Below are positions 24,989 through 50,412 of a stretch of DNA of 64,000 bases, one piece after another. This stretch comes from Spheniscus humboldti. Its lineage: Eukaryota. The DNA lies in the NCBI GenBank assembly GCA_027474245.1, contig CM049887.1:20751762-20815761 (forward strand), given 5' to 3'. A program made the position numbers and the translations under genes. The notes beneath the pieces are model-generated. The model was not told the origin of the DNA and ran no database searches. It saw nothing but the letters and a program-made list of their open reading frames with translations. The number at the start of each line of letters is the position of its first letter. Positions within the stretch are counted from its first letter, which is position 1.

Positions 24989-25030
24989 TTATCTATTTGA
25001 TAAAAACTGCCTAATAATGGTCTGAATTAC

Positions 25031-25175
25031 CTTTCCTCTGTATTAGTCCATAAATGTTTTTCTCCACTGGAATTTTCAGAGAGATCTGAGCTTTCCACAC
25101 ATAAAGGATCAATGTGATGATCTTCACTCTCCGTTAATACTTCCATCTTTTGTTCTGGACACCGCATGTTTTTTC
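25031..25175 (-). CDS. CENPJ: CENPJ coding exon (KNMRCPEQKMEVLTESEDHHIDPLCVESSDLSENSSGEKHLWTNTEE)
   Basis: Acceptor atag (25176-25177) and donor GTAATT (25029-25030) on the minus strand. Phase joins ...TEE+R|PIKAAI with the next exon. Corresponds to human ...[35 protein letters not shown]. Confidence 0.75.
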
Positions 25176-26408
25176 CTATGAAATGAATAGACTTTTTTTT
25201 TCCTCCCAACAACAAATCAGTTTTCAGTTCATACTTTAAGCAGCATTCAGGTCAGATTAAAACCAGAAGGGAGCTTCATGATAAAGTAGCCTGAATTTCT
25301 ACATAAAATAGTCCCAAGATTTCCCCAAGTTGATTATTATTTGAATTTGAGCTTTCTTTTTAAAGGAACATCCAATTATGTATTAAAAATTTTCCACAGA
25401 CCTTAAATAACCCATTCTGATTGTTCTTCATCTTTGCTATTGTTAATTTATAGCTTAAAAATAAAATAACTGAACAAATTTGGATTTCTGCTTTACTGAA
25501 GAGCTCTCTTATCAAGATTCTGTTTCCCATCTATATATGTATAAATTAAGATAAATTTATCCTTTCACATCCTCTTAGACCAAGCCCTCTGATTAAAAGC
25601 TTTAAAGCTGATATGAAGTATGATGAAATGCAATCTCATACCTTTTCCCCAAAACCTCTACAGGTTTTCAGCAACCTTTAGTTGCTAGATTAAAACCAAA
25701 ACCGCTATTCCAGTCATAGCAGTGCAGTAGTCATGCTAGTGCCAATGGTAAAACTGAGAAGAGGAGGAAGGATAAAGAACTCCAGTGCATTCCTTCTGAT
25801 GTACAAATAATTTTTAGTTATATGATGGGATCTCTTTGTCAACCCATCTTGACTCCTAATTCCAGTTCAGTTACTAATCCTCACAATAGAGCTGGTCTGA
25901 AGACATTCTGTATCCCTGGATAGATTGTTATTTTCCATTTGCCACATGAAAATGTGGGTACAGTTCAGCCCAAACAAATCAGCTATCATTATTTAAACAA
26001 TTCAGCTGTCATTATTTGCTATTTTCCCAGTCTTTATCATATATAAGCTTTAGCAGTAAAGATTATATCTTTTTCCTAAGAGACAAACATTTCATCCAGA
26101 TAGAAGAACTTGATGTTTTCCTCATGCTGCTTTTAACAAAACTCACACGGACATCAACAGGAACACTCTGAGGTCTGCAAGCTGTCAGTAAATCAACCAA
26201 CAAATCACGTAAACCAACACTTGTATAAAATCTTCACGATAAGTAGTAGAAAAATTACGTTCAATAACTACAAAGGGAAAAAACCCCACCACAAACCAAG
26301 TTATCTTTCTATAAATGACTAACCAGTAATACATTTGTCTTCCTCATTTTTCAAACAATTCTGCATTTTCAGAGGCACACCCAGACCTTGTTTCTCACAG
26401 GCAGACAC

Positions 26409-26621
26409 TCCTGAAAGTGTCTGCATTCAAAGATGAGGTGCATTCTTTGTTGTTTAACTTTTGTAAAAAATCACTGTCTTGTGTATGTGGAGAAACAATT
26501 GGAGCATAAGTTCTGTCTTCAAAGATATTCTGATACCCAGATGATGGCAATTGGTATAAAATTGTTAAGCCCGCTGAACGCCCAGGTCTTAGCTTTTGAC
26601 TTTCAGCCATTAGAGTATAGC
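26409..26621 (-). CDS. CENPJ: CENPJ coding exon (GYTLMAESQKLRPGRSAGLTILYQLPSSGYQNIFEDRTYAPIVSPHTQDSDFLQKLNNKECTSSLNADTFR)
   Basis: Acceptor caag (26622-26623) on the minus strand. The phase-consistent donor is a weak GTGTCT at 26407-26408; the stronger GTGAGA 11 nt further on would break phase. Corresponds to human [55 protein letters not shown]... The 3' boundary is uncertain. Confidence 0.6.
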
Positions 26622-27440
26622 CTTGAAATTAAAAGAAAAAAAATGGCTGTGTCATTGTATTTGTATTACACCACCACTGTTCCACAGGAGAAAAGAAATG
26701 GTACTGAAGGGCAAGGCTGATCACCCAGCCTCCATCCTTATGTTACTGATCAAGAATAACTGATTAGGCAATCTGGATTTTGTTCTCCTAAGGCTAAGCC
26801 CTAAATTCATTTTCTCAGGTAGGCAGAGTAAAAGAAAGATAATCATTTAAGTCAGGCTGGACTGATACTGCCAACAGGAGAAAATACCCCTGCTCAACTC
26901 TAAAAGCTCTTTCCAGCCCCCCACCGTCCCCTCCCTTTGCACACAGCAAATGAGACTGGAAAACTGATACAGGTTACAAGCGTTTGTTTTTCAATACAGA
27001 TCAGCTCCCTCGTCTAGTTCAGTTCATTATCCGAACAAATCTGTGCTGCGTGAGCACAAACAAGGAGGGACTACTTCATTTGAATACAGTGATAGCTTAA
27101 AGCAATCAAAAGTACTGTGAGAAACAGCTAATCAGAAAGGAAAGCAACTGGTTTTTTACAGTCTTTTGTATTTAAAATATGTTCTACGAAACAAGGGCTC
27201 CCATCATAGCACATATTGATCAAGTTACAATGACAGTTGGCGTTTTATAAAAACAGGATAGTGTTCCTTCTACAGCAGCACTCAACTTTCAGGCACTGAA
27301 GCGATGCAGCATTTATCTTTGACTAGTTGAGTAGTCTTAAGATGAAGAACACTGAATACACTTTCAGATTTTAACTGGAAAGTGAGATTAAATTCTTCAG
27401 TTTACTCGAAGTATGTCATACGCTTGCTTTCTCAACGTAC

Positions 27441-27564
27441 CAAGAACTGCTGTCTGGCCAGATACCATGTTAAGTAGTTTCTGCTGCTCTTCCATTAGCC
27501 TTTGAAGTTGCTTCATCTGCTGTTTCTTTAGCTGTTCCTGTTTCTGTTGTTGCAATTCCTTCAG
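27441..27564 (-). CDS. CENPJ: CENPJ coding exon ([41 protein letters not shown])
   Basis: Acceptor aaaag (27565-27566) and donor GTACGT (27439-27440) on the minus strand. Matches human [37 protein letters not shown]. Confidence 0.85.
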
Positions 27565-29625
27565 CTTTTCAAACAAAAAAATAAATGTATTAGAGGCTAG
27601 GTTTACTTAGAATGTACCACAGGATTAGTGTCATCAAGACAACAGATATTTCTTGTTTTAAAGATGTTCCATTAGGTAAATGTAACATGAAGGAAATTAT
27701 GAATATGAAATGCTATGCTAAATGAAATTTTTGTTTTTCTATCTATGAATGCACATGCTATTTCCAGTTTGCCCAATTAACAGTTCCACTAGTCTTTAAT
27801 TGACCAATCTGCAAACAATAGGGATCAGAACACTCATATCTACTGCACAGGAAAAACATTCAAATTCTGCTCTTTTAACATTAACTTCTACTACGCCATG
27901 TTTTTATTAAAATGTGAAATACTTCATAATAATCAATGCTTTAGAAAAAGTGTGGGTTTTTTTTTTTTTTTGCTTTCCAAGATCTCAGTTACAGTGAACA
28001 GTACTGATACAAAGGACCAAGAGAGGGCAAGAAGAGCATCGGAGAACATTAAGACTCGTGAAGCTGCCTGAAAAAAAGAATTAAAATACTGATTAAATTC
28101 AGTAATCCAGTCTTCATTTTCTTCTGTAGCAGGAGTCCCTGACCCTGCCTCAAGACCAGCCTCGAGGGCCATATGAAGGCAGGGCATTCTGTACCCTACC
28201 AAACCACAGCAATACCATGCCCATCTCTGCATCTCCAACACATACGTATGTGCTAGTTTCAGCTCCTCCAACGGAAAGACAGGAGGCCTGATGAAATCCT
28301 TCCATAGATCAACAATAGGACTGCACCTGTCATCCAGCAAGTAAGAAAAATTTCCCTTGAATTCTCCTTGTAGTCCCTTAAAATTCCAGTGAAAACAGAA
28401 GTAAGGCACTATGCAAGTAGAAGCTGTGAGCTAATGATAGAGATCCAAAGATCACCTAAAGTCTCATCTCCAACCCCTTCCCTTAATTTATTAAAGAAAT
28501 CATACTTCTACCTGTTCAGATAATATCCTCAGAAAGCCAAACTGAAAAAATCTCATGCATCCAAAACTACATTCGTCACTGCAAGCATCAGATTTATTTT
28601 TTTATAATATATTAGATTGTCAATAACTGTCTAAGACAGGAGACTTAACAATTCCGCTTAAGATACCATTAAAGCAGCTAATATCTGTTATTTAGCCACT
28701 GTTTGATACTGCTGACAATACTGAAAAAGTGAATAAATATTTTCCTATCATGTAAAATAGAGGAGAAAATTTTTGTAGCACCACATAAGTTATGGAATTC
28801 TACTCTAGAGACTCACACACACATCCCCACGCACCCCACTTGAGTGAATAGACATAGGGATTTGTGCTGAGGTAGCTGCCAGCAGAGTGGACAAGGAGGT
28901 GAGTGACTTTTTAATCCTTAACAGCAAGATCTATTGAAGTGCCTATGAACACTTTCAGCTAATGCAATTTATATCTAGTAATTAGGAAGAGCTACGAGCA
29001 AACATATAGCCAGTTACAGTGGATTAACTGACATGCTTGCATTGGAAAAAAAAACAATAACATCACAGCATTGTAATTCCAGGCCTTTTTGTCCCAATGT
29101 CATGGATACTTCATCACATTCAACACTAACATCATTCTTCATCTAAACAGAACCAGGTATTGGATGTGCATAGCTGCTTTGAGAACTAACAGAAGATGTT
29201 GCTATAGATACAAGAACATACAACTTCACCACGTTGTGAATATCTGTGGTGAAGTACTACCACTGTAATGACCAGCAGCCCATTTTCACAGCTTCAAGTG
29301 AAGAAACAACGGAACATTGTAAAACTGTGTGGACCTTTCCAGGTAAAACGATTTCGAGAACAAGTACACTGCCACTGAATGCAATTTCATTTTAAACTGG
29401 AACCTGTGCCAGCTGGAAACAACAGAAGTTAGACTCTCAATAAATGCACATGATGATGAGGACACCAATTTTTATGCACGCGTAACTGTGACTTCAGACT
29501 TGCTCTTTAAGCTTGCTGTGTTCTATATGTTGCAAAGAGTTTGCTTAGTTCCAGGTATGACAAATCATATGCAGAAACAAAATAAATCTTAATTGATGTA
29601 TGTCAAGGAATTCTAGAACTTTTAC

Positions 29626-30014
29626 CTGTTCAAGCTTTTGTAAGAGTGGATCGCTGTGATCGTATTTATTCTGACCATCCACTTCACCATGGACAAAGTC
29701 TGTTTTAGAGGCTTCTACGTTATATGCTGCTGCTGGAAAAGATGTTTCAGTGGTATATTGCTGAAGTGTACAAGAGCTGCCAGGCTCTTCTTCACACAAG
29801 GAGTCATCACTTACAGAACAGCTGTCTGAAAGATGCAACACTTCAGCAGGGAAAGCTGTGATGTTTTCAGGTCCGGATAATAAATTTCCTTTGTTGATTT
29901 TCAAACTGGTAAAACTAGGATCTAATAAGACTCCAGCACGGGAAGTATCGGACATCCAATGTGCAATGAAGTTTTGTTCGCTACTCAGATCTTCAACAGT
30001 TGACATCTTGTAAA
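29626..30014 (-). CDS. CENPJ: CENPJ first coding exon. ATG at 30004-30006: MSTVEDLSSEQNFIAHWMSDTSRAGVLLDPSF...PLLQKLEQ
   Basis: Minus-strand acceptor cag at 30015-17; start codon ATG at 30006; donor GTAAAA at 29624-29625. The N-terminus matches human [35 protein letters not shown]...PLFKKLEQ. Confidence 0.85.
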
Positions 30015-31294
30015 CTGTATTCCCATTTATTTGCTGATACAGCATTAGCATAACAGTATTACGTTATGTAGCATTAGGACACTAAAACTTTCAAAGTTCC
30101 AGGTACTTGGTATGGACGGTTACCTACTTTTAGCACCTAGAAATTAAGCAGATAAACACAATAAGACACCTACAATAACAGACTTTCAGTAAAAGACAGT
30201 TAACTCTCTTATAATCAACCCAGTGTGTTTACAAAAATAAGTCACAATCTACTTTTCCCTATGCAATAGAAACAATTTGGACAATTAGTAACAAACACTT
30301 TCTGTGCAGGAAGTCAACATAATCCTTTTATTTGAGTGCAGCTAATATTATCTCAAATATTATAAAGCTGTGTATAATATTGTCTTCAGTACAGAGAGGG
30401 ATTCAGAATTTTTTTGAAGTGCCTGCAACAAAAGAAGTGATTTGAGGAGTTGAAAGAGAGACTTCCCTCACAGAACCTGCATATCAACGCAAAGTTTCAA
30501 ATATGTCCATCTAAATACAAACATTTTACTGCACATATTTCAATGCAGCACTTATCATTTTCGTGTCTTCCTTAGTTGCTCATGGAAACTCTACAACCAT
30601 GATGCCTGTTAGCTTCTTCCTCCCAACCAGCTTCTTTTTTTATATCCATCAAAAAAAAAGTTTGAAGAGTGCAAAAGTTTCAGCGATAACCAAATGCCTA
30701 CAAGTGTCATAAATCATGAATGAATTCAGGTAGATAGGAGACCCAAAGTGATTTCCTCACTTAAGAAGGAAAAGAGACAGAACTGCTGCCAATGACGATG
30801 TGGCAGCAAGAGCCTGACCACTCAGCCCTGCTACCTCAAACTAGTCCCAGGGCAATTAACTTTCTGCCTGTGCATATGGTGTGTCACAGGGAATACAGAG
30901 GAAAGAAGGGGCCAGGAGACAAAGGACAGACAACCACAGCAGCCCAGGCTCAACAGTCCTGCTGATCAGGAAACAACTTCTTAAAGCTTCCTTGTTCCCA
31001 AGGGATCAGTTCATGCCAGCTCTCACTTAATTTCCACGCTGTAAAAGGGCTTATGCTTTCAACCAAAGTTTGAAACCGTGACTAGGTGAAACAGCAAAAT
31101 TCCCTTAAGAAAATGTTTTTCAACTGCCTTCTGTTTTGAGACACCGCTGGAAGTTCCCAGCGAGGTACAGATTCCTGCATAGGCAAATTCAAGGCTACAG
31201 GGCTCACACGCTGTTTTTCCTGTCACCTTTTGGAGACCCTTTCGTGGCAGCCTGCCAGTTTAAAGCTTCCCCTAAAGTCTAAGTGAAGCAGTAC

Positions 31295-31450
31295 CTGCGA
31301 GCCAACCAAAAGAGCTGGCAGGGCTGAAGCTGACCCGTCCCGGGGAGGCGAGGAAGGACGAAGGGATTCCCCCAAAGGTCGCCGGTGGGGAGACGAGCAC
31401 AGCCACGCTCCTCAGCCGAGCCGAGCGGCCAGGCCCAGCGCCTCCCTTCC
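31295..31450 (-). other. CENPJ: Putative CENPJ non-coding exon 1 (5' UTR)
   Basis: Minus-strand donor CGCAG|GTACTG at 31295/31294, inside the CpG island upstream of the coding exon. The TSS position is a guess. Confidence 0.3.
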
Positions 31451-31999
31451 CCCACGGACACGGACACTGCCCCAGCCCGCGGCACCGCGACACCCTCACA
31501 GAGGACGCCCTAAGTGCGCCGCCGGGTCCCACCGCTCCCCGGGCCCCAGGCACCCGCACCACGACAGCTCCGACCCGCAGCCCCTCACAGGTACCGGGGC
31601 GGCAGCACCGGAACCGCTCCTCAGGCCGCTTCCGCAGCAACACTGCGCTCTGGCCGCTACCCCTCTATTACAAACCTGCCGCCATCGCACAGCCTCCCGG
31701 CGCCGCAGGCTGGGCACCGCCCCAGCGCCGAGCATGCTGGGAGTGGTAGTCCCAAGCCGCCGCCTTCCCCGCCCAGCTGCGAGGCGGTTCTTCGGCGCTC
31801 GAACTACAGCTCCCAAGAGCCTCAGCGGCGAAAAGACCGTTGGTGGGCCTCAACAGTGAAGTACTACACCTACAGTAGCCGCTGCCCCGGTTCCTGCCCG
31901 GGGCTGTCAGGAGCGGGAAGAGGTGGCGGGGATCCTTTCAGGCTCCTGGGCCTGCCCCTCGCTCCTGAGGACGGCCCGCAGGTGGCGGCGGCTTCCGGG

Positions 32000-32188
32000 T
32001 CCTCCCCGCGTCGCCGCTGGTGGCCCTTCTGGGAGACGGGGTTTCTCTTCGGGCGGCGCTGCTCCCGGAGAGGCAGAAGGCCGTATGTGCGCAGTGTTCT
32101 TCAGCGGCTGTCCCGGCATGGTGTGTGAGGAGATTCTCGTCTAGTGAGCTGTCCGCAAGCCTTTCGAGGTGTAGTGTTTTCTGCAGGG
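32000..32188 (+). other. PARP4: Putative PARP4 non-coding exon 1 (5' UTR)
   Basis: Candidate donors GAG|GTGTAG at 32168 and GGG|GTGAGG at 32188, at the 3' edge of the CpG island. The first coding exon (38907) begins at an AG acceptor, so an upstream 5' UTR exon is required. TSS unknown. Confidence 0.3.
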
Positions 32189-35100
32189 GTGAGGCTTTGG
32201 ACTTTTCGTGCGCTTTTATTGCGGCTACTTGCACTCTTTTAATCTTTAAATAGCTGCAGTAAGGGAGGAGCAGAAAGATAAATGGGCAAAAAGCATCACC
32301 TGGCTTTCTGACGTTTTGTGCTTTAGGCACGCTCTATCTTACTGAGCGAAGTTAGTGTTTTCCTCTAAACCCCACTCAGTGGCAGAGCATCACGCTCCAA
32401 AAACTTGTGGTACGTCGCAGCCTGTGACCTGTTTTTGCAGCTGTTGTGGGCAAGTACAAAACCGAGCTCTAGGTTGTATAAACCCAGGACAGCCCTTTCA
32501 GTCGCCTACTACTAGTTTTAATTTCCGCTGTTACTTTCTGTAGTTCCACAGGGCTGTTTCTGCTAAACTTTCTACCATCTTTCCTGCACTTTGGTTTTGC
32601 CAGTTATGAATATATTGTCCACATGATTGTCCTCGGACTGGATTCTGCATTAACAGTGAGAAGCTACTGTGCTAGAAAATGCAAGGATTTGTACTTGTGC
32701 TTTTTTAAAGCACAGCATCACATTCAGTCCCTTTGACATCTCTAGTAGGAAAATACAGTTGAGGTTTGTTTTCAGTTTACCTTCACACTGAAGGCCTTAC
32801 AAGACTACAGATTATTCATGGTCTATTGTTGGATGATAAAAATTGATTTTTTGGGTCCCTCTCTGTGCTAAAAATATAATCCATTGCTAATGATGGTGTT
32901 GAATTTGTGGTTTGATCATGAAGTACAAGCTCGTGTGCTTGTGTGAAATCCTTTTGAGGCTATTGGGGCCTTATGGATCTCCACCAACACAAATTAAAAT
33001 TGTGAGAATTAAACCAGTGATAATTGTCAGCAGTTCCACTTTGCATAACTTCCTTATCTGGTGCTGCAACAACACAGTATTCCAGTTATAAAAGTGTTTA
33101 TCAGCAGTTAATTAATTCTCAACACACAGATTAAATACAATAGTTTTATATTCTGATTTTGAATTTTGGAAATTTTGCCATTCAAAAAGAGTAAAACCAA
33201 ACACTGCTAAAATTCCTTGAGAAGTTTGGTTCTCTAGGGAAATAGGAGAAGAGAAGCTACTATTCAGTGGTAGCATTCATCAACAGTGAAAGAGAATAAA
33301 ATCTTCACTGAGGGGAGAGAAAAGTTGGTGGGGACAGACTTTAAACAGGTTTAACTCAATTTCCTGCTCTCTGTCGGGTATTCCAAAGTTCACTTATGCT
33401 TTAACAGTGACAATTTCCTCCTGCTCCCAAGTACAGCGAGGGTTACCGCCCCTTATTGTGCAGTAGACTGCACTTCGCTCGGTTTATTTCTTTGTCTGGG
33501 TTCCTGTCCCTTCGGGCATTTTGCAGAGACATACGAGTGTGTCCTAGCCCTTCCTACCTACAACACCCAGGCTCTCCAGTTGTACCTCACGCTGTTGGGG
33601 AAGGAGGAAGATCCTTCAGGGAGGGCAGCTGCCTGAACAGGTGAGTGTAAACGATTTGGCTCTCTCAAAATCTAAAGAGAAGAGTGGGATCAGGGGTCAC
33701 TTAATACCTCTTGTGCTGAGAACAGAGAAGGGGGTGTGTCTCTGCAGACAGACTTGGAGACAATGAATCCCTCAAGTTTATGTGCATACCTTTCTGCTTA
33801 CTGGCTGATCTACGGCTTATTTAATGATCAGTTCTCAGAAGAATTTTTTTCTCAGTTCTTAGCAGCTTGATTTTCATAAGCAAATGTAATATGAAATACT
33901 TCTGTGGAGTTTTGCACCACACGTAGCTACCAATCTCAGTTGCTTCTGGTGTGTTCTGGATGACATATGGATGTATAGGTAGGGCTGATGCTTGCAATTG
34001 CTTGTATGTATTTCATTGCCTTCTAATAAACTTTTTGTTTTGGCTGTGCAAATAGAGTTCATTATTTCCTGAGGAGACAACTTCTGGTGATACTTAGCAG
34101 TATCCAGAATCTGCTTTAGAGAATATATTGAGAAAACTAGTGCACACAGAGCTCTAGTGAAGAGGAAGGCAGTGCCCAGATCTATACTATGGTTATTAAA
34201 GGAAGCCTTTAGCAGTGGCACGTTTGCCCTTATATATGCCTCAAATTTATCTGTCTTGTTTGTGACAAGAGTCAAAATAAAGTTGATAAAAGCAGCTTAA
34301 AATAAGACTTTATACCACAAAGTACAGCTTCTTAAAGGTACAGTTTCCCACATAGCCAAGTTATAACAAGGTTGCATCATAAAAGATTCTTATCACCTCA
34401 GATAACATAGTATATTGTGAAAACCTCTTAGTTAAAATATGGAGAGTTGTTTTTTGTGTGAGCAGAGAGTACTTCTATGCCAAAAGCACTGCTAATGACA
34501 TAGAAAACAAAAACAGGAGCCCCAAAATATAGGTATATAATGACATCATATGCCCTTTGATCCGCTATCTGCCTGATATGCACGTATTACCATTACAGAG
34601 TTGCCAGTTCTATCAGGTGTATAGTGCAGTAGATGATTTGGGCCCTTCCTATAGATTACCTTTCTGAGATAAAATTACACAGATGTGTATAAAATTGTGT
34701 CTGATAGCATTTCCAGGTTATCATGAAACCCCAAATTCAAATTAATTATGTTGCTCTCTCTCCTTGACTACTTATATTTTAGCTAATAATTTAAGTTCTT
34801 CCATGGTAGCTGGCCATCTGATTCCTTTTTTACTGCACTGAAGAACAACTTTACTTGCATACATTGAAAATCAAATAGGCCACATTCCTTAAATGTAGTA
34901 TGGGTAACATACTCTAAATCTCACCCTAAAATTACCTCTGGCTAACGTGTTTCCATTTTTTTATCTGAAGCCTTATCCTAATCATCTGCTCTAAACTTGG
35001 GTCCTTGTTAAATTGATCACACAATAATCTTATATTAGATTGTGAAGTGCTGTATACTAATTGTTAAGGCAGCAGAACCAATTGGGTAATTAAATTATTT

Positions 35101-35758
35101 GTTACTAGTCCTAAGAAACTAGTAAAGAAACTGTTCTAATAAATGTTTCCTCATTTGCACATACATAGTGCAGAAAAATGTGAATTGGTAAATGAACGCA
35201 AGTAGTTCAAACAGCATCTGCTTTCCTTTTTGCAGTCTTCAATGTAGGTGTTGTTTACTTATAGAAGTAGGAGGATAGAAGCTTAATCAGAATTTGCGGT
35301 CTATGTGGGAGCTCTCATTAAGTTGGAGAAAGGTCATTTTTGCTCCGAATGGCTTCCCCAAGAGAGAGGGCACTTAATATCAGACATTTTTGGCTAACAG
35401 AAGAACTGCTTTCCTTTCACATTATCTTTACTTTCGAACAAGCAATTTCTTATTTGTTCTGCCTCTGTGAGTCCAGGATGAATTTGGAGAGGCCAAGTAT
35501 TCTAGAGTGTCAGTTTTGTCCAGTTATCTCACAAATAAAATTATTTGGCCTTAAGTCACTGTGGAAAACTTACATCATCAAGTAACTTTTCCAGAAATAC
35601 AAATAGATAGAGTAAAAACAAAGTCTTTACCAGTGACACCAATACTAACCATGTGGATGCGATATGGACATGGTGTACTGGGATCCAAAGAGTCATTGGT
35701 AAAAAGAATTTATGTTCTCTTCATGCTAGTTACTGTAGTGTTAGCAGTGTGTCTGCAT

Positions 35759-37625
35759 TATCATAGAATCATAGAATAGTTTGGGTTGGAAGGGACCTCT
35801 AAAGGTCATCTAGTCCAACCCACCTGCCATGGGCAGGGACATCTTCAACTAGATCAGGTTGCTCAGAACTCCGTCCAACCTGACCTTGAATGTTTCCAGG
35901 GACGAGGCATCCACCACCTCTCTGGGCAACCTGTGCCAGCGTTTCACCACCCTCAGCGTAAAACATTTCTTCCTTCTATCTAGTCTGAATCTACCACCCT
36001 TTAGTTTAAAGCCATTCCACGTTGTCCTGTCGCAACAGGCCCTGCTAAAAAGTCTGCTGCCATCTTTTTGATAACCCCCTTTAAGTACTGAGAGGCTGCA
36101 ATAAGGTCTCCCCAAAGGCTTCTCTTCTCCAGGCTGAACAACCCCAACTCTCTCAGCCTTTCTTCATAGGAGAGGTCTTCCATCCTCCTGATCATTTTCG
36201 TGGCCCTCTTCTGGACTCGCTCCAACAGGTCTGTGTCTTTCTTATGCTGAGGGCTCCAGAGCTGCATACAGTACTCCAGGTGGGGTCTCACCAGAGCAGA
36301 GCAGAGGGGCAGAATCACCTCCCTCGACCTGCTGGCCACGCTGCTTTTGATGCAGCCCAGGATACGATTGGCCTTCTGGGCTGCGAGCACACATTGCTGG
36401 CTCATGTCCAGCTTTTCATCCCCCAGTACTCCCAAGTCCTTCTCGGCAGGGCTGCTCTCAATCCCTTCATCCCCCAGCCTGCATTGATATTGGGGGTTGC
36501 CCTGACCCAGGTGCAGGACTTTGCCCTTGGCCTTGTTAAACCTCATGAGGTTCACATGGGCCCACTTCTCGAGCTTGTCCAGGGCCCTCTGGATGGCATC
36601 CCGTCCCTCTGGCGTGTCGACCGCACCACTCAGCTTGGTGTCATCTGCAAGCTCGCTGAGGGTGCACTTGATCCCACTGTCTATGTCCTTGATGAAGATA
36701 TTAAACAGTACCGGTCCCAATACGGACCCCTGCAGGACGCCACTCATCACCAGTCTCCATCTGGACATTGAGCTGTTGACCACTACCCTCTGGATGCGAC
36801 CATCTAACCAATTCCTCACCCACCGGACAGTCCACCCATCAAATCCACACCTCTCCAGTTTAGAGAGAAGGATGTTGTGGGGGACCGTGTCAAAGGCCTT
36901 ACGGAGGTCCAGATAGATGACATCTGTAGCCCTTCCCGTGCCCACTGATGTAGTCACTCCATCACAGAAGGCCACTAGGTTAGTCAGGCAGGACTTGCCC
37001 TTGGTGAAGCCATGCTGGCTGTCTCAAATCACCTCCCTGTCCTCCATGTGCCTTAGCATAGCTTCCAGGAGGATCTGTTCCATGATCTTCCCAGGCACAG
37101 AGGTGAGACTGACTGGCCTGTAGTTCCCCGGGTCTTCCTTTTTTCCCTTTTTAAAAATGGGGGTTATGTTTCCCCTTTTCCAGTCAGTGGGAACTTCAGT
37201 GGACTGCCACAACTTCTCAAATACGATGGGTAGTGGCTTAGCAACTTCATCCGCCAGTTCCTTCAGGACCTGCGCATGGATCTCATTGGGTCCCATGGAC
37301 TTGTGCACCTTCAGGTGCCTTAGATGGACTCAAACTTGATCTTCTCCCACAGTGGGTGGCTCTTCATTCTCCCAGTCCCCGCCTTTGCCTTCTGTGGCTT
37401 GGGCGGTGAGGCTCAAGCACTTGCCAGTGAAGACTGAGGCAAAAAAGTCATTGAGTACCTCCGCCTTCTCCATGTCCTGGGTAACCAGGTCTCCTGTTTT
37501 GTTCTGGGGACATTTTTTTTGTCCACGTTTTCCCTCATCTTCCTTTTATCCCCGACGTACCTATAGAATCTTTTCTTGTTGCCTTTGATGTCCCTGGCCA
37601 ACTGCCATTAGCGGTTTGGCTTGGA
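35759..37625 (-). mobile_element. CR1 LINE, 5'-truncated, about 1.9 kb, antisense in PARP4 intron 1
   Basis: The complement of the (ATTCTATG)n tail lies at 35761-35778. Minus-strand ORFs 36001-36975 ([69 protein letters not shown]..., RT), 37024-37308 ([25 protein letters not shown]...) and 37413-37601 ([14 protein letters not shown]). Confidence 0.85.
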
Positions 37626-38373
37626 GCAGCGATGCAATTTTAAACCAAATCTTTTGGTTGTTGAGAGCTGCCTTCTGTTGATTAAGTTCCCGAAGTGGTT
37701 TTGAGGTGTACCCTCTGAATGCCTTTCAGACAAAACTAAACTGGGCACTGTGCTTCAAATAAGCTTAGTGGAGGCATTGGTTTTGGCTTCTGTCTGAACC
37801 CCCCCAGTCATAAGGCCCTCTAGCTTGCACTTACCACTCAGTTACCACTGAAGGGCTCCGAAACCCTAGAAAGCCCGTGACATGCTGAGGAGCTCATGTG
37901 CTATATAAAGAGCTCAGTGCTCTGTATAGTGTTCTCATTTACACTGATAATTATCATTCTCATCAGTTTTTAAAATAACTTTACACTCATAGGCATCCAA
38001 GAAAGTAAATATACATTGATGACATTTTAATTGCTTAAACCAGATGCTGCTGTTATATTTTGTTGTCATAAATTCTACTCCTGTTTAAATAAAACTTTTC
38101 CAGTCTCTCTTATCTTAGCATAGTTTGTCACAAATGACATGCAGATGATTTTCATTCCGGTTGTTTTACAGACAATTTAGGTTGACACTGCTGAGAAGAG
38201 AAGCAGTCCCCCTACTTCCATCTCTTCCCTACCTCTCCATCACTTCCACTGCTACACTACTCCTTTTTGTAAATCTTTGTCATAGGCCAGAGGGTGAATT
38301 CAATCAGAAAACAGATCTGGATTAAAACTAGCCTCTTGGGTTTGCGAATTTTGGGGTTGTTTAGGGTGTTTGG

Positions 38374-38396
38374 TTTTTTTTTTGGGGGGGGGGGGG
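38374..38396. repeat. T10 G13 homopolymer junction
   Basis: Direct reading: tttttttttt followed by ggggggggggggg, about 500 bp upstream of the PARP4 first coding exon. Confidence 0.8.
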
Positions 38397-38906
38397 AGCA
38401 TTGCTGTGTTGGGTTTAATCTGGATCAGTTTTCCAAAGTTCTTTTGAAATGTTGTGAGATGGGGTTTTTTACATTTACAGATTATAAATCAGTGAGTGGA
38501 AACATGAAGAGCAGTTTACATTCTTGAAAAAGAGAGTTATTTTATAATGGTACTGTGTGAAAGGGGAACTGAAAGAGAGGTTGTTACAGTTTAAATTAAG
38601 ATAATTCCACATTACTAACAGTGGGTGTTAGCAGCAAGAGATCAAGACGAGTTTGGCAGTTAGTTCAAGCCATGACTTCACTGGAAAGATAGGTCACACT
38701 AAATTTTCCACATAATTAAAAAAAATGAATAAAACTGATTAAGAAATGTTCTGAGTGGATTTGATTACCATGCTAATAAAATGGGATTTGTTTTGGAAGT
38801 TAAGAGTTGCAAAGAATATATTTGGTGAGAGACTGCTTAGGTGGGTAGCGGGAATGAAAGTTTTCTCAGCCAAAAAACTCAGTAAAATTCTTTTCTCTTT
38901 TAACAG

Positions 38907-39039
38907 GAGGGCAATGGCAATCTTTGCAAACTGTGTGTTCTTTATTAAAGTTAAATACTTAGCCATTCAGGAAAAGAGCAGGCTGAAAGCATGCATAAAA
39001 GAAAATGGTGGAGTAGTTAATTTTGTGCTTAATCACAAG
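38907..39039 (+). CDS. PARP4: PARP4 first coding exon. ATG at 38914: MAIFANCVFFIKVKYLAIQEKSRLKACIKENGGVVNFVLNHK (BRCT domain)
   Basis: Acceptor aacag at 38905-06 and donor AAG|GTAAGT at 39039/40. Matches the human PARP4 N-terminus MVMGIFANCIFCLKVKYLPQQQKKKLQTDIKENGGKFSFSLNPQ. Confidence 0.85.
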
Positions 39040-41685
39040 GTAAGTTCCAGATTTATTTCTGAGATCTCAGTAGGAAAATATCAAGTGGTGCAAGTGTTGT
39101 AGAGTGTTCATCTTGCCACATGTAGAGAAATAAGAACTGTAGAGATGATGTCTGTTCAATATTTAAATGGAAATACTCGGTTTATGTTTTTAATGCATCT
39201 GGCTCTGTAGTACTGAAATGTCACATAAAAAATCAAGAGTAATATTCTCCCTCCACAGAAGAACCAGGGAGTTTTTTTCCCTGGATAAAATTGCCATGCT
39301 GCTTTTCTTCTCTTATTGTCAGAGAGAGGAGACTGAATAAGGAGATGCATCACTGAATTGGGTTTTGGTTATGTTATTGTTAATGCAAGCATTTGATTGC
39401 AGAGTGAGGAAAAGATGGTTGTAGACTTAGAAGTCTGTGATATTGCAGGTTTTTATTTAAATACAGCTTTTTATTTTGAATATATACTGAACACACAGCG
39501 TGGATAAATCAAGAAGCCTGTTTGCATGACACGCACAGCAATGAAATCAGTGGGCTGCATCTACAGTGGTACGTTACATGCCTAGGAGTGTTTGCAGGGG
39601 CTGTGGCCAGCTGGCATGGCTTGGCCGACACCTATGCTACTGAACTCTCTTTGTCCTCAGGACTGACTGTTCATATCCAGACTGCCTAATGGGAATGGTC
39701 ATGGTGATGATCTGTCTCCCAAACCATGCCTGGAAACTGGGAGGATATGAGTTGGCAGAAGCTAGAAGTGTGCCAAGGAACATGCTAATGCCTTAATAAG
39801 TATTCACATGCCAGTGACAGGGAATTATCTAACATTATCTAACTTAATAGTGAAGGCATAATACCTTGTTACTTCTGCCAGTTGAAAGTGACATTTTGTC
39901 CTTCCCATAGCTAGTAATTACAGCAAGCTCATAAATATTGTCATATTAGAGTGCTTACTTCTAATCCACCTTGGGGAGAAGGTAATGCATGGTATTATGA
40001 TTTCAATTTTTTGTTTTCTCTGTATACAGTTTTTTAATTTCGAGAAGAGTATGATTAAGTGAGTTAATTTCTCCCTCTCTCTCTTGTGTAGTGTTTCCTA
40101 ATGTAACATTGGGTGAATTACTTTAAATCCTACTGTTATGTATAGCTCCCATAGGTGATTGTCATTCTACAAACAGCAAAAATTGTATATGCTGTCCTCA
40201 AGAGTCTGCAGTTTAAATTGTGCATAATATAAGGTGTTGACATTGAAGGAAAAAGAAAGGAATGTGTGAAGAAAAGGAATATTGCAGGTACATTATCATC
40301 TTGTTCAGAGCCCAATAGTTTCCTGGTGACTCTGACAATGCAGATCTGTTTAGGAGAGAAAGTGAAGAATTGAAGAATAACATATCAAGGTCTAGCAAGA
40401 GTATTCCAAAGATATGATAGATTTCTTTGTGCTGTAAATTCAGGATCTTCCGAGATGTGTTGACGCATCTCTTTGTGGTGGCTATGATCTTGTAAAGAAG
40501 CAATGGGTGGACAATAATTAAGGCTCACATTTATCCCATCAAACTGCTCATCTCTAGATATGATTTGGGGAAAAAAGTCAAGGAAATTGTCCCATAAAAA
40601 CAATAAGCTTTAAAAAAAGTTTTGCTAAAAAAATTAATTATTGAAAATAGCAAATGAACTAAGAGTTAATGCAGTACAAATATGTATTAATTGAAATCTG
40701 TATTTTGAATCATCTTTATAAATACAGTGGGAAGAGAGATATTCCAATACCTAAAATTTGTGAGCTCTAGGATGCTGAGAACAGCTAACAAGTGGCCAAC
40801 CTGTTCAGGGTACATCTTACCCAAGCTTCAGAAGTTACGTTACGATTAAGGATTAAAAAGAACCTCAGAACAGATCTGGGCTCAGTGCTTCTGTATCAGG
40901 GAAGAGCTCTTATTTTTAAAGCTGTACTTTTGTCATATGTGACAAATAAAAGTACATGCATTTATCATCCTGTTTCCAAGTAAAGTTGATCTAATTTCAT
41001 TCTGATGCAATAACTTTTCATTTATCTGTGTCAATCAGTTCTTGCATGCTTAATGTTAACTGTTTGAAGTACAAAATCTGCTGCCTCTTACTTATGACCA
41101 TTTTATTTGATTTGACTTCTCTAAACATTTTTATTTTGTCCTAACTATGCAGAAGGTTTTCACTTTCAGCATATATATATATCATTCCAGTAAAACAATA
41201 TATGATTCTTTATAAGGCTACTAAAGCATATTATGATTATTCAGCATTCTGCCCAGCTTTTTTTTTAACACTCTTACCCCAAATAGCTTTGGGTTTGTAC
41301 CATGTTGGCCACAACAGAACTGGGCCCATTATTGGACCTCCTATGTGCTGCTAAAAGCTCTACAGAACATTAGGCACTTGGTCACCTTCATATCTTTGTA
41401 GTTACTGTAGAAAAGTGGACACAGTCTGAAGATATCCGTATTTTAGTTGAGCTGAACTGTCACCTGAGAAAGTCCTGCTCTCTCTGCTGTCTATGGATGA
41501 AGTGCTGAATACCATGTTTCTAAATTAGATGTTTCAATTAAAATATGGTCCAAAAAGGTAGTCTGTTTTTTAAATGTTTCCTTTGGACTCTAGGATTGTA
41601 CCACTATGAATTGCAGATAAACAGTATTTGGATTAATATTGTAGTTATGTGTGCATAGCAACTGTAATTGTAACCTGTCTTTCAG

Positions 41686-41881
41686 AGTACACATGTTCTT
41701 GTGGATACTGCTGATGTCCTCAGCTGTCATGATCTAAAAAATAGTCAGAAGTATCAGCTCCCTGTTTTCTATGCAGATTTCATTTGGAAATCAGTTGAAA
41801 AGGGGAAGCTTTTACAGATTGATGCATATAAGGTTAATAAATCGCAAGATGACACTTCTGACCAAAGGCCAGACAGACAGG
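41686..41881 (+). CDS. PARP4: PARP4 coding exon (STHVLVDTADVLSCHDLKNSQKYQLPVFYADFIWKSVEKGKLLQIDAYKVNKSQDDTSDQRPDRQ)
   Basis: Acceptor tttcag at 41684-85 and donor G|GTAGGT at 41881/82. Matches human CTHIILDNADVLSQYQLNSIQKNHVHIANPDFIWKSIREKRLLDVKNYDPYKPLDITPPPDQ. Confidence 0.85.
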
Positions 41882-43364
41882 GTAGGTATATTTGACATAT
41901 CTGATTCATCTATCAGTTACTTCGGGAAAGAATGTTTTAGAAGATGAATATTTAGAATCAGCTTTTAAGAAATCAGCAACCATGGAAACTGGCAATAAAG
42001 TTGATTAAAAAACCCCAGATTTTTTCAGAAAAGAAATATTAGTTCCATTCTGTGGAGTCTTTCCAATGATTTTTTTTTTTTCCTTTTAATGAAACTTCAA
42101 ATAAGACTTCAAGTTGGAAATGTGGACGAAATATCAAAAATAGCAAAAAAAGCTACTCCAATGACTGTCTTTATTTGACTCCACTGGAAAAAAATTACAG
42201 TAACCTGGAAGTTTTAGTTAATTTCAACAGAATGCAGTGGGTTTTCAGTGCCTTTGTATGTGGAAGTGTTATGTTTTGAAGTCAAAATTATGAGAAAATA
42301 AGATAGCTAGAGAACAGGTTAACATGGGTTAGAAATATTTAATGCAACATAATTAACACAGAAGAACTTCAAGCATTCCAATACGTAACATGGTTCACAT
42401 GCAAACAACTATAACCCTGTGTAGAAGGAAAAAAGCCAAATGTTCATTTTAATGCTGTGAGACAAGCCAAAGAACGTGAAAGAGATGAGAAAGATAATTC
42501 TTTTTAATGTGTACAGTCAGCAAAGAAGTTATCATCCTGAAAGTTATTAGTGTTTTAATTCTCTTTTTTTCTTCGCAGTAACTACGCTTTTTATTTCCTT
42601 TTACTTTCGCATCTCTTGCATTTTGCTGGGTGCTAGTCCTTCCTTTAAGTATTTTTAAAAGTAATTACTTTTGACATAATACATTTTATTTTATGAACTT
42701 TCTCATGTCATGAATCAGTACAATTTTCAGAACTATATATAAGAATGAGAGTCAGGACCCGTGCATTTGTACGTTTGCTGTGTCATTGAGTCGGTTAGAC
42801 AAATCTGATTTTGCACAGCAGAGGCCATGGGCATGCATGGCTGAAGCTGGGTAGATCCATTCAGTAGCACTCCTAAAAAATAGTTTTAAGCTAAAAGTAA
42901 AACTGCATTCATACACTTTATCTATACAACTTTAAAAAAAAAAAAAAGGCAAACGAACCAAAGAAACAAAACCCCCCAAAACTAGTGTGAGCCATGGAGG
43001 AATAGTTCTCAGGCTCTGTGGTCAAGTGGCACAGTGTAGCTCTCAGCTATGTGCCCTAATTCTTTTTCCCCTTCCTGTCACAGAAGTCAGGGTGGCAAAG
43101 TGCCTGGAGGGAATAAGCACTGGCACAGCTCAGGGAGGTACTAATTCTAGCAGTGAGGCAGTTGGGGCAGTTGCCCTTCAATACTTGACTCTGTATCCTG
43201 CCAGTTATATGGCTGAATGAAATGAGACCTTAGAAGTTGTTAACTTGTTTCAACGTGTAAAATATTTATGAATATTAAATGGTAGTATTGTTTTTATTAA
43301 CTATTCATAAGTTAAATTAGAGAAACCAGATATTATACCAAGATATTATATGTTTTGACTGCAG

Positions 43365-43485
43365 ATGTGGAAGACCTGTCATCTGCTGAAAATAAACATG
43401 CCACAAAGAAAAATCAAAACGATTCCAACCTTACTGTTATTGAAGACAGTGGGAGAAGAATTGAGTCCAAAGTGGGGACTCTTAG
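43365..43485 (+). CDS. PARP4: PARP4 coding exon (DVEDLSSAENKHATKKNQNDSNLTVIEDSGRRIESKVGTL)
   Basis: Acceptor ctgcag at 43363-64 and donor AG|GTAAAA at 43485/86. Phases link both neighbours (G+AT=D; AG+A=R). This is a low-conservation linker region. Confidence 0.6.
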
Positions 43486-44604
43486 GTAAAATAAAATAAA
43501 AGATACGTTTTGCTACATCTATGTTGATGTTTCTGTAAATTGGGGGGGGGGACGACACACACCCAAACCCCCCAAAAAACCCACTTCCCAATGTGTTATA
43601 GTGACTTCTGGAGATGGCTCTTATTATCTTAATAATATAGTGGAAGATAAAATTCTTTTTTCTTAATTTTCTGTATTCTGTGTGTATGAATTTATAATGG
43701 CTTCTTTTTCTTTTTTTTTTTTACCTTTGGACCTGCCTGTGTAAATTGATTTTATATTTTTCCATCTCAGTGTACACCTACAGTCCAGCTCCCTAATACA
43801 TGCAAAGCTTCTACCAACTCAGCAGGTGTTAGTATGGCTCAAGCTTTACGATTTTCTAATTGGAGCTCTGTTTATCATCACAATTTTTTTCTTTTCTTGG
43901 TTCACATGGGTCTTTGCAATCCAGTCCAATTCATTGTTTCTAGAAGTGCTGAGCATCTCTTCCTCCCATGAAAATTCCTGGGAGAGCTGAAAATCAAGAT
44001 GACTGAGACTGCTCTTATTTGATAGGGAAGCAGTATTGTTATAACTGTTTCTAATTATTGAGTTAAAGGAACAAAACCAGCCCTAACATTCTTAAATCTA
44101 TTAACAAAATGCAGCTTTCACTTTTAGAGACTGCCGTTCAGTCATAGGGTAGGTATTTAGTTACTCTGTGGGAATGTACTAGAAGTTACACTTGGTCTAA
44201 AAGTCCTGATGCTGAAGGATATGACTACACCTATATATTCTAATGTGAAAGTCAGGAATAAGGAAGGAATTGGCCTCAGACAGTACAGGTAGCTGACCAA
44301 GCTATTAAAAAATTAACATGTAACCAGGCAATGAAAATACATTTATCGTGTTGCTTCCATAGTTTTTCTAAAGAATGAAGATTGAAATCTAGTCTTCAGG
44401 TTCACACTAGACATTCTGGCCTGTTAGTGCAGCAGCTTGTCCGGGTGGGATTTCATTTCTCAAAACTTCTTTTGTTGTTATTTTGCCGCTGAAAAATAGA
44501 TTTATCTTCTTATCTTAGTTCCTACTTTAGTATGAAGTTGCAGCCTATTACAGTACAGTATTTACTGGGCATATGTGATTTTAATTACTCCGATTCTATT
44601 CCAG

Positions 44605-44683
44605 ATTTTACAGTGAAAATGGTCAAGATATTCCTTTTTTCCCCCAAGATTTTGAAGTTGCAAAATACAGTGTCCTTGAAAAA
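44605..44683 (+). CDS. PARP4: PARP4 coding exon (RFYSENGQDIPFFPQDFEVAKYSVLEK)
   Basis: Acceptor ttccag at 44603-04 and donor AAA|GTAAGC at 44683/84. Matches human EFGMQNVEIPHLPQDFEVAKYNTLEK. Confidence 0.85.
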
Positions 44684-45254: not shown

Positions 45255-45368
45255 GTTAACTCCAAGGGAACCAAAGATTTTGTAGTTATTGAATTACAGT
45301 GTTCCCAAAAGCATTACAAGTTTCCGTTTCGACTGTATGCACACTTCAGTGCATCAAATGGCACAAAG
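45255..45368 (+). CDS. PARP4: PARP4 coding exon (VNSKGTKDFVVIELQCSQKHYKFPFRLYAHFSASNGTK)
   Basis: Acceptor catttag at 45253-54 and donor AAG|GTATGA at 45368/69. Matches human VGMEGGQEAVVVELQCSRDSRDCPFLISSHFLLDDGMET. Confidence 0.8.
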
Positions 45369-50357: not shown

Positions 50358-50412
50358 CGCTCTTTCTGCAATTTTGCGATAGCTTTCAGTTTAATAATCT
50401 CTTCTTTTAAAG

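What the first reader, a model, noticed from the sequence alone, without database searches (positions are those of the whole stretch)
29626..38914. CENPJ and PARP4 are head-to-head around one CpG island. The gene order RNF17>CENPJ<|>PARP4 implies an inversion relative to human.
The only CpG island in the window (31.27-32.23 kb) lies between the CENPJ first coding exon (minus, ATG at 30006) and the PARP4 first coding exon (plus, ATG at 38914). It is best read as a bidirectional promoter. In human 13q12 the order, as I recall it, is PARP4(-) ... ATP12A(+) RNF17(+) CENPJ(-). PARP4 and CENPJ are hundreds of kb apart there and do not share a promoter. The arrangement here (RNF17 tail-to-tail with CENPJ; CENPJ head-to-head with PARP4) is what an inversion of the ATP12A-RNF17-CENPJ block would produce. 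It places a centriole-duplication gene and the vault PARP under a shared bidirectional promoter in this lineage.
Basis: partly seen in the sequence, partly recalled or inferred. Interest (0 to 1): 0.5.

Follow-up and report, generated by a model that had tools for sequence, protein, structure and literature searches.

The report
Ancestral CENPJ–PARP4 head-to-head gene pair
In this bird sequence CENPJ and PARP4 do point away from each other across one CpG island, but chicken, emu, squirrel and goat share that layout, so it is the old arrangement and the human one is the rearranged one.

Summary
The CENPJ start codon is at 30006 (-) and the PARP4 start codon at 38914 (+). The only substantial CpG island is at 31251-32250. 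RNF17 lies tail-to-tail with CENPJ.

The evolutionary reading is backwards. The same head-to-head pair is present in emu and squirrel loci, and penguin keeps the CENPJ side and the island. Published gene orders show it in chicken (MPHOSPH8-PARP4-CENPJ-RNF17) and goat (ATP12A-RNF17-CENPJ-PARP4-MPHOSPH8). Human gene lists show PARP4 separated from CENPJ. So the arrangement is ancestral for amniotes and the human order is derived. It is not an assembly misjoin.

"Shared bidirectional promoter" is only partly supported. The island core (31659-31852) carries two oppositely oriented THAP11/ZNF143-type motifs. Emu, penguin and squirrel keep this pair with the same spacing. However, a spliced galliform PARP4 mRNA places a 5'UTR exon at 33318-33640, about 1.1 kb outside the island. 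In squirrel, PARP4 has its own island about 8.5 kb from the CENPJ-proximal one. No transcription start site was mapped for either gene.

This is ordinary conserved synteny. Interest is low.

The parts
7693..9822 (+). 3' exons of the Tudor-domain gene RNF17 (7693-7836, 9174-9362, 9727-9822), tail-to-tail with CENPJ
   Evidence: Pfam TUDOR hit. The three exons are colinear, at about 62% amino-acid identity, with the TUDOR gene downstream of camel CENPJ. RNF17 is listed next to CENPJ in the chicken and goat gene lists.
12535..30006 (-). CENPJ coding region. First coding exon 30006-29626 (ATG at 30006); large exon 22109-20481; last coding exon about 12726-12535.
   Evidence: Translation. Bird CENPJ homologues. 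tblastn exon map with P0001 and P0014. Pfam Tcp10_C on 12538-12726 and 13751-13894.
31251..32250 (.). CpG island, the only one 400 bp or longer in the window
   Evidence: GC 0.66, CpG obs/exp 0.79, 86 CpG, against 0.28 for the whole window. Equivalent islands lie between the two genes in emu (6351-7400) and upstream of CENPJ in penguin (301-1300).
31659..31852 (.). Conserved promoter core: a YY1-like GCCGCCATC (31678-31686) plus the two THAP11/ZNF143-type motifs
   Evidence: 80-87% identity to emu in 60-column windows, against a mean of 63% across the aligned interval.
31738..31750 (-). ACTACCACTCCCA, continuing as ...GCATGCTCGGCG: an SBS2-like ZNF143/THAP11 site on the minus strand
   Evidence: only 2 matches to ACTACNNNTCCCA in 64 kb, 0.13 expected. 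The same minus/plus pair, 63-65 bp apart, occurs in penguin, emu and squirrel. The motif is defined in PMC3627581.
31803..31815 (+). ACTACAGCTCCCA: an exact THAP11-binding-site / M4 motif on the plus strand
   Evidence: Motif definitions are in PMC3627581 and PMC5006282.
32237..32263 (+). 27-nt block TTTTAATCTTTAAATAGCTGCAGTAAG, identical in emu. It could be a weak conserved donor (GCA|GTAAG, last exon base 32258) or a TATA-like element. Its function is unknown.
   Evidence: Alignment A2. Donor scan: 4.9 bits here and 6.0 bits at the emu equivalent.
33318..33640 (+). Non-coding PARP4 5'UTR exon. The 5' limit is a minimum. The donor is CAG|GTGAGT, with the GT at 33641.
   Evidence: Bases 1-239 of the spliced galliform PARP4 mRNA contig L008 align here and then continue directly at 38907. 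This is the only strong plus-strand donor between 31.7 and 33.7 kb: 12.4 bits, next best 8.0. It lies in a 2.06-kb stretch (33189-35253) that emu lacks.
36001..37308 (-). CR1 retrotransposon fragment inside the PARP4 5'UTR intron. It helps explain the 8.9 kb ATG-to-ATG distance here, against 5.1 kb in emu.
   Evidence: ORFs. Pfam RVT_1. Window 35665-37605 has no aligned counterpart in emu.
38907..39039 (+). PARP4 first coding exon: acceptor ttttaacAG|GAGGGCA, ATG at 38914, donor AAG|GTAAGT
   Evidence: Sequence. Splice junction confirmed by L008. Start of the BRCT domain.
41683..62655 (+). Further PARP4 coding exons (BRCT, WGR-like, PARP catalytic, VIT). The gene runs off the end of the window.
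   Evidence: tblastn with bird PARP4 P0128 and blastn with the mRNA L008. Pfam PARP and VIT hits.

Best explanation
The window is the bird version of the conserved segment RNF17> <CENPJ | PARP4>. It is closest to gentoo penguin among the sequences I fetched. CENPJ and PARP4 are divergent neighbours, and this layout predates the bird-mammal split. It was not created by an inversion in this lineage. The human order (PARP4 ... ATP12A RNF17 CENPJ) is the derived one.

The CpG island is orthologous to the CENPJ-proximal island of squirrel. I read it first of all as the CENPJ promoter. Its conserved 190-bp core carries a YY1-like box and two oppositely oriented THAP11/ZNF143-type (M4/SBS2) sites. 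That motif class is tied experimentally to bidirectional initiation, so the core probably fires in both directions. This step is inferred.

PARP4 mRNA includes a non-coding exon at 33318 or earlier to 33640, spliced to the ATG exon at 38907. This is shown by homology to a galliform mRNA. Whether PARP4 transcripts start in the island or about 1.1-1.5 kb to its right is unresolved. I put about 50-55% on the island contributing to PARP4 transcription. Emu lacks the 33.3-kb exon region altogether, which favours an island start there.
For: Gene identities.

Ancestral arrangement:
- Emu L002 has CENPJ exon 1 (-) at 4856-4464, an island at 6351-7400 and the PARP4 ATG (+) at 10001.
- Penguin L001 has CENPJ exon 1 with the island upstream.
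- Squirrel L004 has CENPJ exon 1 (-) at 5390-4941, island A at 9851-10600 and the true PARP4 ATG exon (+) at 33986.
- The sequence upstream of camel CENPJ is colinear with the squirrel intergenic region, and a TUDOR gene lies tail-to-tail.
- Goat order is ATP12A, RNF17, CENPJ, PARP4, MPHOSPH8. Chicken order is MPHOSPH8, PARP4, CENPJ, RNF17.

Human differs. Human also has an inverted PARP4/PARP4P pair 5 Mb apart and a PARP4/TPTE2 duplicon.

Promoter core: the motif pair is unique in the window (2 found, 0.13 expected). It is conserved with the same spacing in penguin, emu and squirrel. Motif biology comes from PMC3627581, PMC3082894 and PMC5006282.

PARP4 5'UTR exon.
Against: No transcription start site was mapped for either gene. 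The CENPJ non-coding exon 1 was not located: minus-strand donors in the island score 6.7 bits or less, and I found no CENPJ 5' transcript.

The galliform contig may be incomplete at its 5' end. A possible acceptor (ttctctAG|G at 33237) lies 80 nt upstream of where the contig starts.

The human order rests on gene lists in papers plus my own recall, not on sequence I could read. The langur locus reaches only 3.1 kb beyond its PARP4 island, so it cannot show whether CENPJ is absent there. The fish and frog loci were uninformative, so I claim 'ancestral' for amniotes only.
Confidence: 0.85

Rival explanations
1. One reading: an inversion of the ATP12A-RNF17-CENPJ block in the bird lineage newly placed CENPJ next to PARP4 under a shared promoter.
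For: The order does differ from human. Within the four-gene block, the formal difference is equivalent to flipping RNF17-CENPJ relative to PARP4.
Against: Emu, chicken, squirrel and goat have the same head-to-head pair, camel is consistent with it, and penguin keeps the CENPJ side. The island's motif pair is shared between birds and squirrel. In goat and chicken PARP4 is flanked by MPHOSPH8, which lies about 5 Mb from PARP4 in human by my recall and is absent from the human duplication that contains PARP4. So the change is on the human side and involves more than one breakpoint.
Confidence: 0.02
2. The adjacency is an assembly misjoin.
For: None was found.
Against: The window has no N runs. 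The interval aligns colinearly with independent emu and penguin assemblies across the junction. A spliced mRNA bridges 33640 to 38907. Chicken and goat chromosome-level gene lists agree.
Confidence: 0.01
3. There is a strict shared bidirectional promoter. Both genes start inside the island less than 1 kb apart. PARP4 exon 1 lies in the island and splices, directly or through the 33.3-kb exon, to the ATG exon.
For: It is the only island in the interval. There is a plus-oriented exact THAP11/M4 site at 31803 and a conserved core. A 27-nt block identical in emu holds a GCA|GTAAG donor at 32258. Emu lacks the 33.3-kb exon region, so its PARP4 must start elsewhere. ZNF143 sites drive bidirectional transcription (PMC3082894). 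A candidate acceptor sits at 33237, upstream of the start of the galliform contig.
Against: The galliform mRNA contig shows no island-derived sequence. A 400-nt internal UTR exon would be unusually long. Plus-strand donors within or just after the island are weak, at 8 bits or less. In squirrel the PARP4 island is separate and about 8.5 kb from the CENPJ-proximal island.
Confidence: 0.4
4. The two promoters are separate but close. The island serves CENPJ, with at most unstable antisense transcripts on the other side. PARP4 starts at a non-CpG promoter near 33.2-33.3 kb.
For: The 5' end of the mRNA contig maps to 33318, with an AT-rich upstream stretch and an AATAAAA at 33296. The length of the exon suits a first exon. 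Mammals have separate islands for the two genes.
Against: The contig's 5' end is not a mapped cap site. This region is absent from emu, so it cannot be the universal bird PARP4 promoter. The spacing of the TATA-like element to 33318 is not canonical.
Confidence: 0.45

Closest known systems
Conserved amniote synteny block ATP12A-RNF17-CENPJ-PARP4-MPHOSPH8-PSPC1 (goat chr12, chicken chr1)
   Same: Same gene order and orientations for RNF17>, <CENPJ and PARP4>. The intergenic CpG island lies at the same relative place in emu and penguin.
   Different: The distances differ: 8.9 kb ATG-to-ATG here, 5.1 kb in emu and 28.6 kb in squirrel. Here a CR1 insertion and a 2-kb stretch absent from emu lengthen the interval. 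Chicken's list has ARHGAP20 after RNF17 and does not list ATP12A. The window itself does not reach that far.
ZNF143/THAP11 (SBS2 / M4 motif) CpG-island bidirectional promoters, as described for human divergent gene pairs (PMC3082894, PMC3627581, PMC5006282)
   Same: A head-to-head protein-coding pair with a CpG island between them. There is an exact ACTACANNTCCCA site and an SBS2-like site (ACTACCACTCCCAGCATGCTCGGCG). Both are deeply conserved.
   Different: The defining start-site spacing of less than 1 kb is not shown. The one mapped PARP4 UTR exon begins at least 1.07 kb beyond the island edge. No ChIP, CAGE or reporter data exist for this locus.
Human 13q12 arrangement (PARP4 ... ATP12A, RNF17, CENPJ, PABPC3, AMER2)
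   Same: The RNF17/CENPJ tail-to-tail pair is kept.
   Different: PARP4 is not CENPJ's 5' neighbour in human. A PARP4 pseudogene fragment lies about 5 Mb away in inverted orientation at chr13:19.39 Mb, and PARP4 shares a duplicon with TPTE2. By my recall that site is next to MPHOSPH8, which is the ancestral PARP4 position.

Membership tests
CpG island (Gardiner-Garden & Frommer / Takai-Jones criteria) | Length at least 200 bp (500 bp in the stricter version), GC at least 0.5-0.55, CpG obs/exp at least 0.6-0.65 | tested here: met
   31251-32250: 1000 bp, GC 0.66, o/e 0.79.
Bidirectional promoter (divergent gene pair) | Two genes on opposite strands with adjacent 5' ends and no gene between them | tested here: met
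   CENPJ ATG at 30006 (-) and PARP4 ATG at 38914 (+). Between them I found only CR1 fragments and GC-rich or unsupported ORFs. No Rfam or Pfam hit.
Bidirectional promoter (divergent gene pair) | Transcription start sites less than 1 kb apart (definition in PMC3082894) | tested here: inconclusive
   No start-site data. The PARP4 UTR exon mapped by a galliform mRNA starts at or upstream of 33318. That is 1.07 kb from the island edge and about 1.5 kb from the motif core. The CENPJ exon 1 was not located.
Bidirectional promoter (divergent gene pair) | Enrichment of ZNF143 SBS / M4 (ACTAYRNNNCCCR) / YY1-type motifs in the shared region | tested here: met
   Two oppositely oriented ACTACNNNTCCCA sites 65 bp apart (2 found, 0.13 expected). 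They are conserved in penguin, emu and squirrel. A GCCGCCATC box lies at 31678.
Bidirectional promoter (divergent gene pair) | Both genes depend on the shared element (co-expression, dual reporter, deletion) | not testable with these tools
   Needs expression or reporter experiments.
Lineage-specific (bird) inversion | Outgroups and basal members of the lineage carry the alternative, human-like order | tested here: not met
   Emu (a palaeognath), chicken, squirrel and goat all show CENPJ next to PARP4, and camel is consistent with it.
CENPJ / PARP4 / RNF17 orthologues | Characteristic domains plus colinear exon matches to named orthologues | tested here: met
   Tcp10_C for CENPJ, BRCT+PARP+VIT for PARP4, TUDOR for RNF17. 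Named bird CENPJ and PARP4 hits. Exon maps. Camel synteny.

The most novel reading that the evidence does not exclude
The roughly 190-bp core with two inverted THAP11/ZNF143 sites has been kept for more than 300 million years because it co-regulates CENPJ (centriole duplication) and PARP4 (vault PARP) as one divergent unit in most amniotes. On this reading, the rearrangement on the human lineage, which carries PARP4/TPTE2 duplications, uncoupled the two genes. The PARP4 pseudogene fragment at chr13:19.39 Mb would then be a relic of the ancestral site.
Probability: 0.15. Interest if true: 0.3.

Novelty: already known. Interest (0 to 1): 0.1.

Why it matters
It matters mainly as a correction. 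Comparing any genome with human alone can make an ancestral arrangement look like a lineage-specific event. Here the human 13q12 region is the rearranged one.

There is one small positive result. The CENPJ-side promoter core, with its paired inverted THAP11/ZNF143-type motifs, is conserved from birds to a rodent. That gives a defined element to test for divergent transcription. None of this changes what is known about CENPJ or PARP4 function.

Tried and rejected
1. Synteny look-ups for lizard (P0139), sloth (P0123), lemur (P0121) and dromedary (P0126) PARP4 returned 'not on record'. At least three of these were shorter isoforms, and only the longest product of a gene is indexed. I therefore could not date the primate rearrangement or add a reptile.

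2. The langur locus L003 first looked like evidence that CENPJ is absent upstream of PARP4. I withdrew that. In squirrel the CENPJ ATG is 13.5 kb from the PARP4 island, and L003 reaches only 3.1 kb beyond its island.

3. The tarpon and frog loci show no CENPJ within 10 kb of PARP4. But the CENPJ N-terminus is too divergent to detect there, and the frog has overlapping PARP4 gene models. I treat both as uninformative.

4. An apparent second PARP4 exon-1 copy in squirrel at 10001 was an artefact of my own making. L004.fa also holds the tarpon locus L005, and my BLAST output lacked subject names.

5. The third protein search, with a chimeric CENPJ-N plus PARP4-N query, found no close bird transcripts carrying 5'UTRs.

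6. Two scans of JGI metagenome contigs for conserved PARP4 and CENPJ start-exon strings found nothing.

7. No bird-mammal nucleotide alignment of the intergenic region is detectable beyond the motif pair.

8. The 204-aa ORF inside the island (31514-32128) has no Pfam hit. I treat it as a GC-rich artefact.

9. No paper in the library mentions CENPJ and PARP4 together with 'bidirectional'.
Full report
**What is in the sequence**

The window is vertebrate DNA with CR1 (chicken-repeat-1) retrotransposon ORFs. It is 95.8% identical over 21 kb to a gentoo penguin contig. So it comes from a bird, probably a penguin or a close relative.

My CpG scan finds one large island at 31251-32250: GC 0.66, obs/exp 0.79, 86 CpG. 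The window-wide obs/exp is 0.28. The other qualifying stretches are 200-300 bp, most of them inside CR1 copies.

The minus-strand exon 30006-29626 starts with ATG and encodes the CENPJ N-terminus. The 1.6-kb exon at 20481-22109 hits about 120 proteins, almost all named CENPJ; the best is gentoo penguin at 97%. The 3' exons hit Pfam Tcp10_C.

The plus-strand exon 38907-39039 has its ATG at 38914 and opens the PARP4 reading frame. Sixteen or more colinear exons follow up to 62655. They give Pfam BRCT, PARP and VIT hits.

Tudor-domain exons lie on the plus strand at 7.7-9.8 kb. They are colinear with the TUDOR gene that sits tail-to-tail with CENPJ in camel. This is RNF17.

**Is the arrangement special to this lineage? 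No.**

I fetched loci around PARP4 or CENPJ from other genomes.

- **Emu**, a palaeognath and so the deepest split among living birds. CENPJ exon 1 is at 4856-4464 (-), a CpG island at 6351-7400 and the PARP4 ATG at 10001 (+).
- **Gentoo penguin.** CENPJ exon 1 has the island upstream.
- **Grey squirrel.** CENPJ exon 1 is at 5390-4941 (-) and a CpG island at 9851-10600. The true PARP4 ATG exon is at 33986 (+).
- **Camel.** CENPJ is followed tail-to-tail by a TUDOR gene. Its upstream 9 kb is colinear with the squirrel CENPJ-PARP4 intergenic region. The PARP4 model P0145 is reported on a contig of the same length (3,008,865 bp) as the scaffold that carries CENPJ.

Published positional gene lists agree:

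- goat chr12: ATP12A, RNF17, CENPJ, PARP4, MPHOSPH8, PSPC1, ZMYM5, ZMYM2, GJA3 (PMC11874128);
- chicken chr1...PSPC1, MPHOSPH8, PARP4, CENPJ, RNF17, ARHGAP20... (PMC10976558).

Human differs. A human duplication at chr13:22.15-24.20 Mb (hg18) contains SGCG...SPATA13, C1QTNF9, PARP4 and ATP12A, but not RNF17, CENPJ or MPHOSPH8 (PMC3279563). That is impossible under the goat order. A positional human list reads RNF17, CENPJ..., PABPC3, AMER2, MTMR6 (PMC5017670).

The head-to-head pair is therefore ancestral for amniotes, and the human order is derived. The change is also more than a single local inversion, because PARP4's other neighbour differs as well. It is MPHOSPH8 in goat and chicken, and the SPATA13/C1QTNF9 side in human.

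Two further facts fit a duplication-associated rearrangement on the human lineage. Human carries an inverted PARP4/PARP4P pair about 5 Mb apart, at chr13:24.44 and 19.39 Mb. PARP4 also shares a duplicon with TPTE2. By my recall, the 19.39-Mb site is beside MPHOSPH8, the ancestral PARP4 position. That last link is inference. I could not date the event, because the lemur look-up failed and the langur locus is too short.

An assembly misjoin is excluded. The interval aligns colinearly with independent assemblies, and an mRNA bridges part of it.

**Is the island a shared bidirectional promoter? Partly supported.**

*For.* Within the island, the stretch 31659-31852 is 80-87% identical to emu, against a mean of 63% for the interval. 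It contains GCCGCCATC, which is YY1-like. It also contains two oppositely oriented copies of ACTACNNNTCCCA, at 31738-31750 (-) and 31803-31815 (+). These are the only two matches in 64 kb, where 0.13 are expected.

The same minus/plus pair, 63-65 bp apart, occurs in penguin and emu. It also occurs in the squirrel island next to CENPJ, at 10291 and 10354.

ACTACANNTCCCA is the THAP11/HCF-1 binding site. It is also the 5' part of the 25-bp ZNF143 SBS2 motif (PMC3627581) and corresponds to the promoter motif M4 (PMC5006282). The minus-strand copy continues as CCCAGCATGCTCGGCG, a good ZNF143 site. ZNF143 sites are over-represented in bidirectional promoters and can drive transcription both ways (PMC3082894).

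Both first coding exons are preceded by AG dinucleotides, so each gene should have a non-coding exon upstream. The PARP4 acceptor is confirmed below. The CENPJ acceptor is weak and unconfirmed.

*Against, or unresolved.* The only transcript I could recover is a 3168-nt spliced PARP4 mRNA contig from an ENA assembly (L008). Its protein is 92.8% identical to turkey PARP4, so it comes from a galliform.

Its 5'UTR (nt 1-239) aligns to window 33318-33640 and then jumps exactly to 38907. This uses the donor CAG|GTGAGT. At 12.4 bits it is the only strong plus-strand donor between 31.7 and 33.7 kb. So a PARP4 non-coding exon lies about 1.07 kb to the right of the island and about 1.5 kb from the motif core. 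The contig contains no island sequence.

The contig could be incomplete at its 5' end. A possible acceptor lies at 33237. A 27-nt block identical in emu (32237-32263) holds a weak donor, GCA|GTAAG.

The exon sits in a 2.06-kb stretch (33189-35253) that emu lacks entirely. Emu PARP4 must therefore start elsewhere, most simply in the island.

In squirrel there are two islands. Island A carries the motif pair next to CENPJ. Island B (18851-19450) is homologous to the langur PARP4 island. So in mammals the two promoters are separate, about 8.5 kb apart.

I could not locate CENPJ exon 1. Minus-strand donors in the island are weak, and I found no CENPJ 5' transcript.

**Mechanism I commit to**

The island is the CENPJ promoter, by orthology with squirrel island A. 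This is shown by the motif pair. Its core is probably a ZNF143/THAP11-dependent element that initiates in both directions. This is inferred from motif biology.

PARP4 mRNA in neognath birds includes the 33.3-kb UTR exon. This is shown by homology. I put about 50-55% on the island feeding PARP4 transcription and about 45% on a separate start near 33.2-33.3 kb.

**Comparison with what is known, and novelty**

The gene order is visible in published gene lists and in any genome browser. The motif class and its link to divergent promoters are well described. Nothing here is a new kind of element. The finding is ordinary conserved synteny read with the wrong polarity.

The deep conservation of the paired motifs is a minor but clean observation. 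So is the association of the human rearrangement with PARP4/TPTE2 duplications.

**What led nowhere**

- Four synteny look-ups failed.
- The fish and frog loci were uninformative.
- Both metagenome scans were empty.
- Rfam found nothing in 29.0-39.5 kb.
- No bird-mammal alignment is detectable beyond the motifs.
- One apparent duplicated exon was my own file-handling artefact.

Noticed in passing
window 59374-61869 (+): A CR1 retrotransposon copy with an uninterrupted 831-aa ORF (endonuclease plus reverse transcriptase; Pfam Exo_endo_phos_2 and RVT_1). It sits in a PARP4 intron between the exons at about 59277-59301 and 61949-62014. An ORF this long suggests a fairly recent insertion.
   Followed up: partly
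window 33189-35253: A 2.06-kb stretch of unique sequence that is absent from emu, where the flanks abut at L002 8236/8240. It contains the PARP4 5'UTR exon used in a galliform mRNA. The exon is therefore either a neognath gain or an emu loss.
   Followed up: partly
window 32237-32263: A 27-nt block (TTTTAATCTTTAAATAGCTGCAGTAAG) that is 100% identical between this bird and emu, while the surrounding sequence is about 65% identical. It could be a TATA-like element or a conserved weak splice donor. It is unexplained.
   Followed up: partly
L004 10001-31883 (squirrel, GCA_020004445.1): The first roughly 330 residues of the deposited squirrel 'PARP4' protein P0127 are GC-rich ORFs taken from CpG islands and intergenic DNA (MKPLHCERPVPS...). 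The true ATG exon at 33986-34117 is missing from the model. This is an annotation artefact.
   Followed up: yes
L004 9851-10600 and 18851-19450; L003 3151-3950: Squirrel has two CpG islands between CENPJ and PARP4. The distal one is homologous to the langur PARP4 island. The proximal one carries the bird-like motif pair. In camel, an assembly gap (L007 5374-6371) lies where the proximal island is expected.
   Followed up: partly
human chr13:19,387,189-19,387,646 versus 24,442,070-24,442,526 (from PMC12632684): Human has a PARP4 pseudogene fragment in inverted orientation about 5 Mb from PARP4. By my recall it is near TPTE2 and MPHOSPH8, where PARP4 sits in goat and chicken. It may be a relic of the rearrangement that separated PARP4 from CENPJ.
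   Followed up: no
L006 (frog Dendropsophus ebraccatus, CM051060.1): Two overlapping same-strand PARP4 gene models: one of 1774 aa spanning the whole locus and one of 873 aa inside it. The PARP4 start exon is at 16140 rather than at the start of the model. This may be a tandem duplication or redundant annotation.
   Followed up: no
window 1987-5171, 23962-24595, 36001-37308: Several further CR1 fragments in both orientations, including nested or adjacent copies at 2-5 kb within the RNF17 region. They account for all the GC-rich 1-kb bins outside the CpG island.
   Followed up: partly
protein database behaviour: No hit longer than about 1004 aa was returned for CENPJ (about 1300 aa) or PARP4 (about 1700 aa). 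The searchable collection seems to lack long proteins, which limited the synteny look-ups to partial models.
   Followed up: no
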